From a virus (lineage: Duplodnaviria > Caudoviricetes), in the IMG/VR virus record IMGVR_UViG_3300034161_000018, positions 128,001-192,000 of that record: a stretch of DNA of 64,000 nt. The stretch is one strand, 5' to 3'. Each line of letters starts with the position of its first letter. Within the stretch, counting starts at the first letter, position 1. The notes below the pieces were generated by a model. That model had not been told where the DNA came from. It made no database searches and saw nothing but the letters and a program-made list of their open reading frames with translations. Of the stretch, positions 19,365-37,821 are shown piece after piece. Position numbers and translations under genes: made by a program.

Positions 19365-19374
19365 TTTACAGTTT
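19365..19374 (-). promoter_or_regulatory. AAACTGTAAA putative phage-sigma promoter motif
   Basis: Exact copy of the recurrent 10-mer, overlapping the TnpB-like stop codon. Confidence 0.65.
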
Positions 19375-20469
19375 ATTCTTCAACGCGGCCAACGTATTGT
19401 TTGCGATGGCATCGTAAATCGTCACGCGTTCATGGCCGCGCTTTCCGCAAACAACATCGGTTCCGTCGATCTTGGAATGTTGCGCGTGACCGCAATGCGG
19501 ACAGAAAGCCATGTTGGTAAACAGATTCACCGGGTTGACCATTCGTTTGTGTTCGACCGCACCCAGCAACATCAGACGCTGAACTTCGTTCATCAAAATG
19601 TCGAGGTTCAAATAATTCCAACTGACTTGCATTCCGGGCGTGACCGGCAAACAGTAACCGAGAGTCGAATAGCTTTCGACAATCTCTTTCGCAAACTCCG
19701 GCGCAAACTTGTAGGCGCGTGTTTCCATTTCGTAAGAACGCGCATCGCGATCCCGCGCAGCCTGACGGAAATCGTGATCCATTGGTTCGGTTGCGTCTCG
19801 CATCCGTTTGACTGCGCTGCCCGCCGATTTCGATTTCAGTTCAACAAAATACGCATAGTCTTCTAGGCCGCGTGGCTTCAACGCTTTCTGTTCCGTCGAA
19901 CAAAACATGATTGGCGTTTCGCGAACTGGCGTCATCACCATAATCGCCGCACCACTAACGGACGGGCGAATGTCGGATTCCACAATTGCTTTCGCGTGCC
20001 AGTTTCGGTAAACGTGATTGCTCCGCACAAACTCCACAAACAATGCGTTTTTGGTTTTGCCGTCTTTCGACAACTCGCCAAGGTGCGGCAGTTCCATGCG
20101 TTGGTTGTCGCTGCGAATAATCGACAGTGCAAACGATCCGGAAGTGCGCTCGCGTTCCAAATAAACCGCCGCTGTGTAGCAGTCCAAGTGATTGCGAATC
20201 GGGGCGAAAATGCTTTTCACTTTCAGCGATGCGCCTTTCACCAGTTCCGGATATTTGGAAAGGGAATCAACGCCCATTGCTTCGTCTTCGTGGCTGAGCG
20301 CACGAATGATTGTTGGATAATCGACTTCCTTACCGGCGAGAATCAGGTAACGCACTTGTGCAAACATTCGCTGAAAGATTTGCTGATACGCTGCACAAAC
20401 TTTTTCAAAACGAGCGGACTGCTCGGTAGTCGGGAAAATGGAAATTGCATTGTACGTGTGAACTTTCAT
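19366..20469 (-). CDS. TnpB-like protein with degenerate RuvC (predicted nuclease-dead, TldR-like)
   Basis: N-term SIFPTTEQ (IS605 OrfB HTH-like), MELPHLGEL WED strand, EIVESYSTLGYC (RuvC-II, E absent), CPHCGH Zn finger, YDAIANN (RuvC-III NAAxNI-like, D absent); GAGGTG SD. Confidence 0.75.
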   Translation of the reverse strand: MKVHTYNAISIFPTTEQSARFEKVCAAYQQIFQRMFAQVRYLILAGKEVDYPTIIRALSHEDEAMGVDSLSKYPELVKGASLKVKSIFAPIRNHLDCYTAAVYLERERTSGSFALSIIRSDNQRMELPHLGELSKDGKTKNALFVEFVRSNHVYRNWHAKAIVESDIRPSVSGAAIMVMTPVRETPIMFCSTEQKALKPRGLEDYAYFVELKSKSAGSAVKRMRDATEPMDHDFRQAARDRDARSYEMETRAYKFAPEFAKEIVESYSTLGYCLPVTPGMQVSWNYLNLDILMNEVQRLMLLGAVEHKRMVNPVNLFTNMAFCPHCGHAQHSKIDGTDVVCGKRGHERVTIYDAIANNTLAALKNKL

Positions 20470-21190
20470 GTTGTTTCACCTCATAATATGGCTCGGCGGC
20501 GCGGGCGTGCGCTTGCCGGTCGGCGGGTGGCTCGCGGTGTAATAGCTTGCCAGTCCTCGCTCCGCTTCGGACTGTGGTTAGACTTTGAGCGTTAGCGAAA
20601 GGTCTAAGCATTGTAAGCGATTAGAAACAGTTAAGACGTTAAAGGGCCATTGCTTCTAATGTCTGGCCTGTTTTCCAAAAAGGAAAATTCAGGCAGAGGT
20701 ATCCCTTTGTTTTCAACGGTTCATGCACAACCAGCTTCCGCTGTCTGCGTTTTGAACCAGAGCGGGGCCACGTTTCTTTGCTTTCTTGGGTTTTGCTAGC
20801 TGCGCTAGCCAATAACCGTCGAGTGGCTACGCCACGTCTCCGGTTACGTTTTCCTTCGGAAAAGCAATTGTGCTTGCACGCTTCAATCAATCACAAACAC
20901 CAAATGGAATTCAACTGGACAACGCATTGCATGCAGCCTTTCTCGCTTCGCTCAATCATCGCCCCACCAACCTCCGGTACGCACCCCCAGTTTACACTTT
21001 TAAAAAAGGGGTCGTTTTCCGGAACGTTTACGGAATCATTCCCGAATCAATATTTACGACTTTGCGTATTAACGTGTGTGGGAGCCTGCCAGAGCTATGT
21101 AGGTGCTGACTTTTTGATTAAGCTATTTTTATTCGGGAAAGAAACGAAAAAAGCCCGAATCCGCGTGAACGGAAACGAGCTTTTTGTTTT
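20470..21190 (-). ncRNA. candidate structured ncRNA (possible guide RNA) or origin; ~720-bp non-coding region
   Basis: Longest non-coding gap in the window; at least seven short perfect stems between 20551 and 20863; variant promoter motif AAAGTGTAAA at 20991-21000 (-). Confidence 0.4.
21147..21185 (-). terminator. Rho-independent terminator after 21192..21758
   Basis: AAAAAGCTCG...CGGGCTTTTTT on the minus strand. Confidence 0.65.
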
Positions 21191-21191
21191 C

Positions 21192-21758
21192 TTACTGCAC
21201 TTGCGATGCCAACATCTGCGCGTACAACTGCGCAAGTTGCGGGTACTGGTCGATTGCAATTTCTGCATTCGGTTGTGGAACGGTGCAGCATTCGTCGGTT
21301 TCCATCGGCGGCAACGGACACGGATCAACAGCTTCCGCTTCTTGCGTTGCCAATCGCGAGAGAACCCATTTGAAAACCTGCACCAGCTTTTCCGCATCCT
21401 CGTAATTGAGGCCGAATGCAAAATCGCGTGCCGGATTATCCGACGCAATCGACTGGTGCTTCTGCGCTTCCAGCTTGCCGACGATTTCCTTTTTCACCGA
21501 ATCCCAAAGGCTGGCGAATTTGTTGGCGTCACGGCTGGTAATTGCGATTGCCAGTTTCTCACCGGTTTCGCGAGAAAGGAATGGCATAATCATTCGCAAC
21601 ATAGCGCTGCGTTTTTCAGCGGGAGTTTTGGCAGCCGCAACCTTCGGCTTTTTGTGTTTGCCTTTCTTTCCCTTCGGCGGTTTTGGTGCGTGATGCTTTG
21701 GTGGTTTGTGACCGCGTGCAATCGCCACCATGTTGTTAGCGATCAGCAATTCTCTCAT
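21192..21758 (-). CDS. hypothetical protein with Lys/Pro-rich N-terminus
   Basis: GAGGA SD; 188 aa. Confidence 0.75.
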   Translation of the reverse strand: MRELLIANNMVAIARGHKPPKHHAPKPPKGKKGKHKKPKVAAAKTPAEKRSAMLRMIMPFLSRETGEKLAIAITSRDANKFASLWDSVKKEIVGKLEAQKHQSIASDNPARDFAFGLNYEDAEKLVQVFKWVLSRLATQEAEAVDPCPLPPMETDECCTVPQPNAEIAIDQYPQLAQLYAQMLASQVQ

Positions 21759-22809: not shown

Positions 22810-23913
22810 CTACAGAAGTTTGTAGCCTTTCGCAATTGCCTTGAGCGGTTCGGTCGGCTGCAACACGCGGGTCTGCACAACCCATTCCAACCGGCGCTGT
22901 TTGGCTGTGATTTTCCGTTCTTTGTCGCGGACTTTCAAAATCATGTTACGGCTCGGGATCACGATAATGTCGCCACCATTCACATCGCCGAGTTCTGGCC
23001 CAAGCACAACCGACATATCGGAAAGCGTGGTCAGTCGGTCATAGTCGAGCGCAATGTTTTCGCCGCTCAAGTTTGCGAATGGTCTTTCGACGCCAAGATC
23101 GAAATCTAGAACAAGGTGCGTGAATTCTTCGACACGAACATAAACTTCATATTCCTGCCCAGCGTGGTCGCGCAAATCTTCCAACGTAATGTCGGTGCCG
23201 TCGAAGCGTTGCACACGTTCCGGCAAAACCACCAGATTGTTTCGGATGGAAACCGTGACCGATTTGAAATACTTCGGCACGATAATCAAAAACGAAACGA
23301 AACCTTGCTCGGCAGTCCGAACCATGCGGTGCGGTGCTTGCGTGGAATCAACGGTGAAGGCGCGCAGGTTTTCGATATTCAGATTTGTGCAAACGGCGCG
23401 CTGCCGTCCGTAAACAGTGAAGCCCGGCTGCAACATTGTGCGATAGCAAATGCCGCAATTGACCGAACCCCGCATAACCGTATCGTGGAATTCGTCTTCG
23501 CCGTCTTCGATTTCGTGGACTGATTCGTCCCGACCGGAAACGTCGTGGATCAACGTGTCTTCATCGTTGTAAAGTTTTTCGCCCAAACCATCGCCGAGGA
23601 AATCGTCATCCTGAAACTTGATTCGGATTCCGTCGTTGCGACTTTCTTTGTGCGGAATGACTGGTGCAATTTCTGTCACGCCATCTTCGGCTTCCGGCAA
23701 AGGTTGCGTATGAGTTTGTGAACAGGAACACGGAACGCCGACCAGTTGTTGAATCTGGTAGAGTTCGATTTCTACCGAATCGACACGCAACGAGTTTTCC
23801 ACTTGCTTGTTGAAAGCGTCAACCGTTTCGTCCAAACGCTTTTGCGCTTGGGGATGCGTGTAGTTCCGGGCGTTGCCTCTTTGGTTTACGAAGCGCCCGC
23901 TTTTGACTGCCAT
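22810..23913 (-). CDS. hypothetical protein, possibly virion neck/head-closure type
   Basis: ATG 23913 after GGAG; PCSC...CGICY cysteines; the track's upstream extension is antisense to ruvC; function is weak inference. Confidence 0.7.
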   Translation of the reverse strand: MAVKSGRFVNQRGNARNYTHPQAQKRLDETVDAFNKQVENSLRVDSVEIELYQIQQLVGVPCSCSQTHTQPLPEAEDGVTEIAPVIPHKESRNDGIRIKFQDDDFLGDGLGEKLYNDEDTLIHDVSGRDESVHEIEDGEDEFHDTVMRGSVNCGICYRTMLQPGFTVYGRQRAVCTNLNIENLRAFTVDSTQAPHRMVRTAEQGFVSFLIIVPKYFKSVTVSIRNNLVVLPERVQRFDGTDITLEDLRDHAGQEYEVYVRVEEFTHLVLDFDLGVERPFANLSGENIALDYDRLTTLSDMSVVLGPELGDVNGGDIIVIPSRNMILKVRDKERKITAKQRRLEWVVQTRVLQPTEPLKAIAKGYKLL

Positions 23914-24012
23914 AAAAAATCCTCCGGTGTCTCCTACTAAATTCCTCAAATATCGGCTGGAATTTTTGAGTTGGTTTGAGGAATTTGACAGCATGACCCG
24001 AGGGAACCAAAC

Positions 24013-24612
24013 ATGGCCAAGGCAAAACAGAAACCCAAAACCATTACGGTAATGGGTTGCGATATGGGCACTGCGAATTTCGGCGTGACCGTAATCAAAG
24101 CAGGCATCGTGGACGGCGTGTTCAAGTTCAAGATCGAAGGCACCGCAATGATGGGCCGGATGATTAAAGACATTACAAACATTCAGCGCGAAGCCGAAGC
24201 GTTCAAAGCGGAATTCGCTCGCTTGCCTCAAGTTGATTATTTGGCAGCGGAAAGATTTCAAACGCGACCGGGTGGCCGGGGCAAACGTGCTGGCGCCGGT
24301 TCGACTGTCGAATCCATTTCGATGATGTTGGGCATTCTGCTTTGCGAACGCGCCGACACGCCAATCGTTTTCTATACGGCAGCAACGTGGAAGAACGCAT
24401 TCAACCGCACAGCCGCTGACCTGAAAGAAATGTATGAGGACACAAAAAAGATCAAGGCGTTTGCGATCCACCAACTCGACTCGACTTTGATTGCGATTTA
24501 TCACGCTTGCAAAATCTTGGGCGTGCCGCCGTTCCCATTCATCACTTCCTATAAGCATGAACAGCTTTTGGTTGAACGCCTTTTGGCTGCCCCGAATCTT
24601 TTTGCGGAATAA
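24013..24612 (+). CDS. ruvC: RuvC-like Holliday junction resolvase
   Basis: VMGCDMGTANFG (first catalytic D), AAERF (E), HQLDS (D). Confidence 0.8.
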   Translation: MAKAKQKPKTITVMGCDMGTANFGVTVIKAGIVDGVFKFKIEGTAMMGRMIKDITNIQREAEAFKAEFARLPQVDYLAAERFQTRPGGRGKRAGAGSTVESISMMLGILLCERADTPIVFYTAATWKNAFNRTAADLKEMYEDTKKIKAFAIHQLDSTLIAIYHACKILGVPPFPFITSYKHEQLLVERLLAAPNLFAE

Positions 24613-37471: not shown

Positions 37472-37599
37472 AAACTGTAAACAAACCCTGTAGGGAAACG
37501 GAAAATGTTTCAATCGTTTCCCGAATCGAATTATAGGAAGCTGTAGCAGGCACCGGACAGAAACTGTAAACCCGGTAAGTGTTCACGGCAAACTGTAAA
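37472..37599 (+). promoter_or_regulatory. cluster of three AAACTGTAAA motifs (37472, 37561, 37590)
   Basis: Three exact copies in 128 bp of intergenic DNA. Confidence 0.7.
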
Positions 37600-37602
37600 C
37601 GG

Positions 37603-37715
37603 AACCTAAGCTAAACCGTAAGCGTTACGTTTGACCATTCTCACCCGATTGGTTACAATGAGTCTCCTAGCGCAGCTTATGCCTACGGACTGACACTTAC
37701 GACTTAGTGGAAGTT
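37603..37715 (+). promoter_or_regulatory. inverted-repeat-flanked sigma70 promoter cassette, copy 2
   Basis: Inverted box 37603-37625; TTGACC 37631-36, 17 bp, TACAAT 37654-59; direct box ACACTTACGACTTAGTGGAAGTT 37693-37715. Confidence 0.85.
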
Positions 37716-37744
37716 CCCCGGTTACGGAATCAACCCCGCGACCA

Positions 37745-37754
37745 AAACTGTAAA
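37745..37754 (+). promoter_or_regulatory. AAACTGTAAA motif
   Basis: Exact copy, 67 nt upstream of ATG 37822. Confidence 0.65.
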
Positions 37755-37821
37755 CCCTATTCAGTCCACTACGGACGAACCCCGGCAACTAATGCCATTC
37801 ATGAAAAAAGGAAATACCGCT

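What the first reader, a model, noticed from the sequence alone, without database searches (positions are those of the whole stretch)
20470..21190. 720-bp hairpin-rich non-coding region directly upstream of the dead TnpB: candidate guide RNA (or origin)
Seen: the largest non-coding gap in an otherwise packed window. It is insulated upstream by a terminator (21147-21185) and has a promoter-motif variant AAAGTGTAAA at 20991-21000 (-). Perfect stems: CAGTCC/GGACTG 20551-20574, TTAGAC/GTCTAA 20578-20607, GGCCA/TGGCC 20645-20668, TTTTCC/GGAAAA 20671-20687 and 20849-20863, GCTAGC/GCTAGC 20795-20809, GTGGC/GCCAC 20823-20835, then a very GC-rich segment 20490-20545 before the SD. Downstream of the tnpB-like stop there are only ~30 nt before the next gene, so any omega-like RNA must lie here or inside the CDS. 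Alternative: a replication origin (CTCGCTTCGCTC-type repeats at 20942 and 20557).
Basis: partly seen in the sequence, partly recalled or inferred. Interest (0 to 1): 0.75.

Follow-up and report, generated by a model that had tools for sequence, protein, structure and literature searches.

The report
Large folded RNA before dead TnpB
The "empty" 720 bases hold a conserved, intricately folded RNA of about 500 nucleotides, made from a phage promoter directly in front of a nuclease-dead TnpB-like gene in a 275-kb phage; it is most likely that protein's RNA partner, in an arrangement and size not described for this protein family.

Summary
Window 20470-21190 has no conserved ORF. It contains the upstream gene's terminator, a 140-nt poorly conserved spacer and a phage promoter motif (20990-21000, minus strand). 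A ~520-nt transcribed stretch then runs to the ribosome site of the 367-aa gene.

All 11 loci that encode close relatives of the protein (47-90% identity) carry the stretch. So does the locus of a 28%-identical relative, and one truncated locus found through the RNA itself.

A curated 60-pair structure is 92% paired, against 32-41% in slid controls. It has 15 pairs with changes on both sides. Fifty-two G-U cells tie it to the gene's strand. Rfam has no match.

The protein has a full-length TnpB fold (Z 13.8 to ISDra2 TnpB), but two of the three RuvC acids are missing.

Best reading, at 0.45: a new omega-RNA-like partner encoded 5' of a TldR-like protein and co-transcribed with it. No guide segment or target was found. 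Binding and transcript ends are untested.

Rivals are a cis-regulatory leader, an independent phage ncRNA, or an RNA-primed origin.

The scan had noted this same stretch before, on this genome only.

The parts
21147..21185 (-). Intrinsic terminator of the upstream 188-aa gene (21192-21758). It insulates the RNA's transcription unit.
   Evidence: GC stem plus U-run in the fold. The stem and T-run are conserved in every locus that reaches that far (10 besides the window).
21017..21046 (.). Three TTCCGGAA-like half-palindromes (21017-21024, 21028-21035, 21039-21046), 11 bp apart, just upstream of the promoter motif. Possible operator array (inference).
   Evidence: TTCCGGAA occurs 15 times in the window against 2.6 expected. 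Similar TTCCGGAA/CCCGAA words occupy the same place in relatives.
20990..21000 (-). Phage promoter-type motif AAAGTGTAAAC. Sequence conservation of the RNA starts right after it.
   Evidence: 12 copies in the window against 0.06 expected. 22 AA[GC]TGTAAAC copies in the genome, all on the strand of the local gene block and most within about 60 nt upstream of a visible start codon. The motif is invariant in all 14 loci.
20533..20989 (-). Structured core of the RNA, about 457 nt. Long-range helix P2: 20953-20943 with 20598-20587. Hairpins: P3 20935-20923, P6 20863-20849, P7 20844-20815 (with a conserved tandem G-A internal loop), P8 20809-20795, P11 20694-20666, P12 20659-20621, P13 20607-20578, P14 20574-20551.
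   Evidence: Alignments A4 and A5, RNAalifold, pair tables and pair counts with controls. Hairpin P8 is present with six different stem sequences.
20485..20532 (-). C-rich tail between the core and the ribosome site. It has almost no U (none in this phage) and is 45-70 nt long in relatives. Its composition is conserved and its sequence half conserved. Role unknown: linker, Rho-loading site or guide-like segment are all only guesses.
   Evidence: Pairing with the G-rich 5' end is no better than composition predicts.
20467..20482 (-). Shine-Dalgarno GAGG (20479-20482) and start codon (20467-20469) of the TnpB-like gene. No terminator separates them from the RNA.
19366..20469 (-). 367-aa TnpB-fold protein with a degenerate RuvC site and an intact CCCH zinc finger. 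It is the gene the RNA precedes.
   Evidence: AlphaFold2 model with pLDDT 92. Foldseek E 7e-10 to the TnpB entry 8h1j. VIA Z 13.8 over residues 1-367. Residue tables.

Best explanation
The gap encodes a new, roughly 500-nt structured RNA. It is transcribed from a phage-specific promoter (motif AAA[GC]TGTAAAC at 21000-20990, minus strand). The transcript has no terminator and continues into the gene for a nuclease-dead TnpB-like protein. The most likely role is that of the protein's cognate RNA, an omega-RNA-like scaffold encoded 5' of the gene rather than at its 3' end. The protein would bind the RNA as it is made, giving a ribonucleoprotein that binds but does not cut nucleic acid, as TldR-type RNA-guided regulators do. 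Binding its own leader would also feed back on expression of the operon. Shown here: the RNA element, its structure, its strand, its promoter motif, its linkage to the gene, the protein's fold and its degenerate catalytic site. Inferred: that the protein binds this RNA, that the RNA carries a guide, and what it targets.
For: 1. Linkage. A gap of about 720-745 nt lies directly upstream of the gene in all 10 close-relative loci that extend that far. L009 is cut inside the gap but still holds the promoter motif and the whole RNA. A 1022-nt gap with the same motifs precedes the 28%-identical relative P0013.
2. Constraint. Mean pairwise nucleotide identity is 0.65 for the RNA, 0.59 for the protein-coding gene and 0.48 for the neighbouring spacer.
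3. Structure. In 60 curated pairs, 92.1% of cells are paired against 32-41% when the partners are slid. Fifteen pairs and 43 cells change on both sides, against 1-7 pairs and at most 9 cells in slid controls. None of 500 shuffles reaches these values.
4. Strand. Fifty-two G-U cells fit only the gene's strand.
5. Not coding.
6. Transcription. The promoter motif is over-represented about 200-fold and mostly sits just upstream of start codons elsewhere in the genome. No terminator-like site lies between the RNA and the ORF on the transcribed strand.
7. Protein. It has a full-length TnpB fold. It has no acidic residue at the RuvC-I and RuvC-II strand positions. D353 is not kept in the distant members.
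8. No room or signal for a canonical 3' omega RNA. The downstream gap is about 31 nt, and synonymous-codon identity in the last 75 codons (0.48-0.55) is not above the rest of the gene.
9. From established knowledge of TnpB, Cas12f and TldR: these proteins work as obligate RNA-protein complexes whose RNA is encoded in cis with the gene (bioRxiv 10.1101/2023.11.30.569447; PMC13622181).
Against: Known TnpB and TldR guide RNAs overlap or follow the 3' end of the gene and are far shorter; the 100-250 nt figure is from my own knowledge, not checked here. This RNA is 5' of the gene and about 500 nt long. No segment behaves like a guide. The variable stretches are hairpin tips or low-complexity A/C- or C-rich linkers. 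No match of 14 nt or more exists elsewhere in the phage genome. No Rfam family matches, including the guide-RNA families Rfam holds. The loci were found mostly through the protein, so co-occurrence is partly built into the sample. The one locus found through the RNA (L017) ends before the gene. Synteny upstream of the RNA is also conserved, so adjacency could reflect shared descent alone. No transcript data could be obtained.
Confidence: 0.45

Rival explanations
1. A cis-acting regulatory leader. The long folded 5' UTR controls transcription read-through or translation of the TnpB-like gene and the replication/repair genes behind it. It might do so through alternative pairings or Rho loading on the C-rich tail, without serving as a guide RNA.
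For: The RNA is continuous with the mRNA and ends 8-10 nt before the ribosome site. The 3' strand of long-range helix P2 lies inside the loop of the covarying hairpin P13, so the two cannot both form as simple helices, which could reflect a switch. The C-rich, nearly U-free tail resembles Rho-loading sites in composition (own knowledge). Three operator-like sites flank the promoter.
Against: About 450 nt with at least ten conserved helices is far more than known attenuators or ribosome-site switches need. No riboswitch or leader family matches. PaBG, the nearest cultured relative, has the same peptidase and clamp-loader genes without the leader or the TnpB-like gene. The RNA therefore travels with that gene, not with the operon.
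Confidence: 0.22
2. An independent, stable phage non-coding RNA with a function of its own, in the manner of the large ornate phage RNAs ROOL and GOLLD. It would merely share a promoter with the TnpB-like gene.
For: Its size, many helices and recurrent G-N-A triloops fit a large ornate RNA. It occurs in phages only. It is constrained at least as strongly as the neighbouring protein.
Against: No match to the ROOL or GOLLD models or any other Rfam family. No tRNA genes lie nearby. The RNA abuts the TnpB-like start codon in every locus that reaches the gene, including the deeply diverged one. There is no terminator of its own.
Confidence: 0.2
3. A replication origin, either a DNA-level site or an RNA-primed one in which the structured transcript forms a primer, in the manner of ColE1 RNA II or the T4 origins.
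For: The locus lies in a replication/repair gene block, with the clamp loader 4 kb downstream. There is a G-run at the RNA's 5' end and a C-rich stretch about 470 nt downstream.
Against: No iterons and no AT-rich unwinding element. Compensatory and G-U changes show selection on RNA pairing, not on duplex DNA sites. GC skew shows no turning point here, and the AT-skew and gene-strand switch lies several kb away. The RNA over the C-rich stretch is itself C-rich, which does not favour a persistent RNA-DNA hybrid (own knowledge).
Confidence: 0.06

Closest known systems
TnpB omega RNA (reRNA) of IS200/IS605 elements, and the guide RNAs of TldR (TnpB-like nuclease-dead repressors)
   Same: A conserved structured RNA encoded in cis with, and on the same transcript as, a TnpB-fold protein. 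The protein's catalytic site is degenerate as in TldR. The carrier is a phage, as for the fliC-associated TldR clade.
   Different: The RNA lies 5' of the gene, not at or after its 3' end. The core is about 450-500 nt, against the 100-250 nt I recall for known guide RNAs (not checked here). No guide or target was identified. There is no sequence or covariance-model similarity. The protein is invisible to Pfam and to PDB sequence searches and has only three sequence clusters among 1.8 billion representatives. The host element is a 275-kb phage with terminal repeats; whether it is lytic or temperate was not tested.
IscB/IsrB omega RNA (HEARO RNA)
   Same: A large structured RNA encoded upstream (5') of a small RNA-guided protein of about 350-500 aa, in which RNA takes over roles of missing protein domains.
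   Different: The protein here has the TnpB/Cas12 architecture, not the IscB/Cas9 one. There is no match to any Rfam model, HEARO included if held. In IscB systems the guide sits at the 5' end. Here the 5' end is highly conserved across phages and has no match in the phage genome.
ROOL and GOLLD large phage-associated RNAs
   Same: Large, ornate, many-helix RNAs carried by phages, of unknown biochemical function.
   Different: No covariance-model match. No tRNA neighbourhood. This RNA is fixed directly in front of one particular protein gene and has no terminator of its own.

Membership tests
TnpB/TldR guide RNA (omega RNA, reRNA) | Encoded overlapping or just downstream of the 3' end of the tnpB-like gene | tested here: not met
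   The RNA lies 5' of the gene. Only about 31 nt follow the stop codon. Synonymous-codon identity at the gene's 3' end (0.48-0.55) is not raised.
TnpB/TldR guide RNA (omega RNA, reRNA) | Conserved structured scaffold, co-transcribed with the gene | tested here: met
   60-pair structure with 92% pairing and 15 covarying pairs, with controls. There is a promoter motif upstream and no terminator before the ORF. Co-transcription itself is inferred from sequence, not measured.
TnpB/TldR guide RNA (omega RNA, reRNA) | A guide segment at the 3' end of the scaffold, complementary to a DNA target next to a TAM | tested here: inconclusive
   No match of 14 nt or more in the phage genome. A 22-nt tail word gave 26 scattered hits in GC-rich genomes, none convincing. 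The host genome is unknown.
TnpB/TldR guide RNA (omega RNA, reRNA) | Physically bound by the TnpB-like protein | not testable with these tools
   This needs pull-down or structure work. The complex predictor takes proteins only.
TldR (TnpB-like nuclease-dead repressor), for the adjacent protein | TnpB fold (WED, REC, RuvC, zinc finger) | tested here: met
   Foldseek E 7e-10, probability 1.0, to TnpB entry 8h1j. VIA Z 13.8, rmsd 8.4, 320 residues aligned over 1-367. C323, C326, C341 and H346 are invariant.
TldR (TnpB-like nuclease-dead repressor), for the adjacent protein | Loss of the RuvC D-E-D catalytic triad | tested here: met
   The strand at 174-180 and the strand at 271-277 carry no conserved acid. 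D353 is kept in the main clade but is H or E in P0013 and P0014. Positions were assigned by topology and a weak profile alignment, not by residue-level superposition.
TldR (TnpB-like nuclease-dead repressor), for the adjacent protein | Sequence membership in the TnpB families (Pfam OrfB_IS605 / Cas12f1-like TNB) | tested here: not met
   No Pfam, PHROG or PDB-sequence match. hhalign against five bona fide TnpBs gave probability 0.3.
TldR (TnpB-like nuclease-dead repressor), for the adjacent protein | Represses a promoter matched by its guide | not testable with these tools
   No target is known.
ROOL / GOLLD / HEARO / other curated RNA families (Rfam 15) | Score against the family covariance model | tested here: not met
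   No hits at gathering score in the window. Nothing relevant at E up to 10 in the region. No hits at E up to 5 in five homologous loci.
Replication origin | Iterons or an AT-rich unwinding element, and a skew turning point | tested here: inconclusive
   No such DNA features are seen in the sequence. Skew is flat and uninformative. Constraint acts on RNA pairs.

The most novel reading that the evidence does not exclude
A lineage of TnpB-derived, nuclease-dead proteins in 270-kb phages has moved its RNA partner to the 5' side of the gene and enlarged it to about 0.5 kb. The result would be an RNA-dominated ribonucleoprotein of a new type, whose many conserved helices do more than hold a guide. 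They might recruit other factors or act on phage replication or transcription from within the replication gene block.
Probability: 0.3. Interest if true: 0.85.

Novelty: new variant of a known kind. Interest (0 to 1): 0.72.

Why it matters
TnpB is the ancestor of the Cas12 enzymes. Its nuclease-dead offshoots (TldR, dCas12f with a sigma factor) have only recently been recognised as natural RNA-guided regulators. All described cases use a short RNA at the 3' side of the gene. If the link holds, a deeply diverged branch in large phages would be paired with a 5'-encoded RNA several times that size. That would widen the known range of RNA-guided systems. It would show a second route, besides IscB, to RNA-heavy complexes. 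It would also give a compact protein with a very different scaffold for study. Independently of the link, the RNA is a new, well-supported large structured RNA family from phages, and few of those are known.

Tried and rejected
1. Rfam at gathering and permissive thresholds, on the window and on five homologous loci, gave nothing apart from a chance ohsC hit on the terminator.

2. GenBank phages hold no DNA or protein match to the locus. PaBG, the nearest cultured relative by clamp loader (47% identity), lacks the module.

3. IMG/VR scans with the protein, with P0014, with an RNA word and with the clamp loader found no further relatives. L013 and L016 were chance matches.

4. A metagenome scan with the protein profile found nothing. 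An RNA-pattern scan added one partial locus, L017.

5. A 5'/3' terminal helix between the G-rich start and the C-rich tail was tested. It is strong in energy (about -44 kcal/mol here), but no better than shuffled tails in most clades (z from -2.1 to +1.95). I do not claim it. The 4-bp 'P1' from RNAalifold never varies and competes with it, so it is unproven.

6. Guide-target search in the phage's own genome gave only 11-13-mers at chance level.

7. A scan of 185,579 genomes with a conserved 22-nt tail word gave 26 scattered hits in GC-rich genomes. Three orthologous Hymenobacter sites, in a gene that reads like topoisomerase I, share 25 nt with this phage's tail (up to 27 nt with L004's by my own count). 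I judge this to be chance, helped by GC-rich codon usage.

8. Expression: no RNA holder is listed. One wastewater run labelled as cDNA, but flagged as probably DNA, has contigs over parts of the RNA region (from this phage or relatives). Three of these, at 20487-20523 and 20848-20938, have depth 49-70; a fourth, at 20643-20886, has depth 2.2. Contigs on flanking coding pieces have depth 2-3. This was not usable as evidence.

9. Profile-profile alignment to five actinobacterial TnpBs was too weak (probability 0.3) to place catalytic residues.

10. No covariance model was built.

12. MAFFT's structure-aware mode was not installed.

Full report
**Context.** The window is bases 128001-192000 of a 274,896-bp virus record with direct terminal repeats. 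By its clamp loader it is a distant relative (47% identity) of Pseudomonas phage PaBG. The finding lies between two minus-strand genes. The upstream one is a 188-aa ORF at 21192-21758. The downstream one is a 367-aa ORF at 19366-20469, protein P0001.

**The observation.** The region folds more stably than shuffles on either strand (z -3.3 and -3.5), which by itself is weak and does not name a strand. No conserved ORF exists:
- Variable alignment columns fall evenly over the three phases (109/110/108).
- Most indels between relatives are 1-2 nt.
- The longest open frames change frame, strand and place from phage to phage.

**Relatives.** P0001 has 11 homologues at 47-90% identity in public assemblies. 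A profile search of 1.8 billion representative proteins found only two further clusters, P0013 (28% identity) and P0014 (26%). I fetched the loci of all 11 homologues and of P0013.
- In every locus that extends far enough, the gene is preceded by a gap of 720-745 nt. The gap is 1022 nt for P0013.
- Conservation does not cover the whole gap. After the upstream terminator comes about 140 nt of poorly conserved spacer (mean pairwise identity 0.48).
- Conservation then rises sharply at the word AAA[GC]TGTAAAC and stays high down to the start codon.
- The distance from that word to the start codon is 517-541 nt in the main group and 593 nt in the P0013 locus.
- A pattern scan of metagenomes with an RNA word added one more locus, L017. 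It is cut by the contig end just after the core.
- Mean pairwise nucleotide identity among eight representative loci is 0.65 for the RNA core and 0.59 for the protein-coding gene.

**Promoter.**
- AAA[GC]TGTAAAC occurs 12 times in the window against 0.06 expected.
- The slightly shorter AA[GC]TGTAAAC occurs 22 times in the genome.
- Most copies lie within about 60 nt upstream of a visible start codon, and all lie on the strand of the local gene block.
- I read the word as a phage-specific promoter, with the start of transcription at or just after it. That is inference from position, not a mapped start.
- The copy at 21000-20990 is the only one followed by a leader of about 520 nt.
- No terminator-like site lies between it and the ORF on the transcribed strand, and the last 45 nt before the ribosome site contain no U at all.
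- The RNA and the gene should therefore be one primary transcript.

**Structure.** RNAalifold on 13 sequences gave long-range and local helices, many with compensatory changes. I curated 60 pairs in 11 helices on a 14-sequence alignment (A5) and counted them.

| Measure | Curated structure | Controls |
|---|---|---|
| Cells forming standard pairs | 92.1% | 32-41% with 3' partners slid 1-3 columns |
| Pairs with changes on both sides | 15 | 1-7 (slid) |
| Cells with changes on both sides | 43 | at most 9 (slid) |
| Shuffles reaching the observed pairing, covarying-pair count, covarying-cell count or covariation score | 0 of 500 | not applicable |

Examples of compensatory change:
- P7 (20844-20815) switches U-A to C-G and G-C to U-A.
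- P11 (20694-20666) switches C-G to U-A at two positions.
- P3 changes two pairs in locus L008.
- P8 exists with six different stem sequences.

Fifty-two cells are G-U pairs, which would be A-C mismatches on the opposite strand. The structure therefore belongs to the gene's strand.

Recurrent features:
- G-N-A triloops closed by C-G occur on P3, P6, P7 and P8.
- P7 has an invariant tandem G-A internal loop.

One complication remains. The 3' strand of the long-range helix P2 (20598-20587) lies inside the loop of the covarying hairpin P13. P2 and P13 are therefore either a pseudoknot-like arrangement or alternative states. P2 itself varies only through G-U changes, so it is less certain.

**What is not supported.**
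- A terminal helix between the G-rich 5' end and the C-rich tail looks strong in this phage. It is no better than composition predicts across clades.
- The stem GGCCA/TGGCC is not conserved.
- No Rfam family matches the region here or in five relatives.

**The neighbouring protein.**
- The AlphaFold2 model (pLDDT 92) matches TnpB, Cas12f and Fanzor structures over its whole length. Foldseek gives E 7e-10 to the TnpB entry 8h1j. VIA gives Z 13.8 with 320 aligned residues to ISDra2 TnpB. AlphaFold DB clusters named transposase/TnpB also match.
- Sequence methods see nothing.
- The strands where RuvC-I and RuvC-II acids should sit (174-180, 271-277) have none. D353, at the start of the last helix where RuvC-III sits, is kept in the main clade but is H or E in the distant members.
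- The zinc finger is intact as C323, C326, C341 and H346.
Two of its details differ: it read RuvC-III as lost and the last zinc ligand as R.

**Putting it together.** From established knowledge, TnpB-family proteins are obligate ribonucleoproteins with a cis-encoded RNA. Here the canonical place for that RNA is closed. Only about 31 nt follow the stop codon, and the last 75 codons show no excess synonymous conservation. The only conserved structured RNA at the locus is the one upstream. It shares the gene's transcript and has stayed glued to the start codon across a divergence that left the proteins 28% identical. PaBG keeps the downstream peptidase and clamp-loader genes but has neither the RNA nor the TnpB-like gene. 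The two therefore behave as one module. This is why I rank 'cognate RNA partner' first.

The case is circumstantial:
- The sample was gathered mostly through the protein.
- The RNA is several times larger than the omega RNAs I recall, and lies on the other side of the gene.
- I could not find a guide. The variable stretches are hairpin tips or low-complexity linkers, the conserved 5' end has no match elsewhere in the phage, and the host is unknown.
- A genome-wide scan with a conserved tail word gave only scattered hits.
- No expression data were usable.

**Literature.** The described TldR clades are fliC-, csrA- and oppF-associated (bioRxiv 10.1101/2023.11.30.569447; PMC13622181). Searches for TnpB in jumbo phages and for large structured phage RNAs turned up nothing that resembles this arrangement. 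The library lacks most subscription journals, so this is not proof of novelty.

**Verdict.** The guide-RNA reading is plausible and is the best single explanation at 0.45. A pure cis-regulatory leader (0.22) and an independent ncRNA (0.20) remain open. An origin is unlikely (0.06).

Noticed in passing
window 21017-21046: Three TTCCGGAA-like sites exactly 11 bp apart lie just upstream of the RNA's promoter motif. No other copy of the promoter motif in the genome has more than one such site within 120 nt upstream. This looks like an operator array for an unknown regulator.
   Followed up: partly
whole window (e.g. 3975, 5763, 16866, 16917, 17552, 26035): The palindrome TTCCGGAA occurs 15 times in the window against 2.6 expected from shuffles. 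It occurs at about 52 sites in the 275-kb genome, against about 4 expected for a random 8-mer. Its function is unknown.
   Followed up: partly
window 27952, 29789, 37472-37755, 46679, 47504, 49575, 53714, 59882: AAACTGTAAAC is a strongly over-represented motif on the strand of the local genes, mostly upstream of start codons. It is probably the promoter of one temporal gene class. Four copies cluster at 37472-37755.
   Followed up: partly
L018, L026, L034 (three Hymenobacter genomes): A 25-nt word of the RNA's C-rich tail (up to 27 nt against L004's tail by my own count) is identical to the sense strand of a gene that reads like topoisomerase I (..KPGKRTPAPPFTTSTLQQEA..) in three Hymenobacter species. 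This is probably chance in GC-rich coding sequence. It would matter if Hymenobacter were the host.
   Followed up: partly
L014 4770-4820: In the distant relative's RNA, the place of the variable hairpin P12 is taken by a run of about 45 T. This may be an assembly artefact or a real homopolymer.
   Followed up: no
L007 8444-9733 and L011 8456-9745: Two relatives carry an opposite-strand 429-aa gene (Pfam DUF723 and DUF7487) between the peptidase and the 182-aa gene. The window lacks it. It looks like a mobile insertion.
   Followed up: no
window 22810-24558 and L003 1610-2713: The PHROG 21298 protein is 582 aa in this phage but 367 aa in relatives. The window's copy has about 215 extra N-terminal residues.
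   Followed up: no
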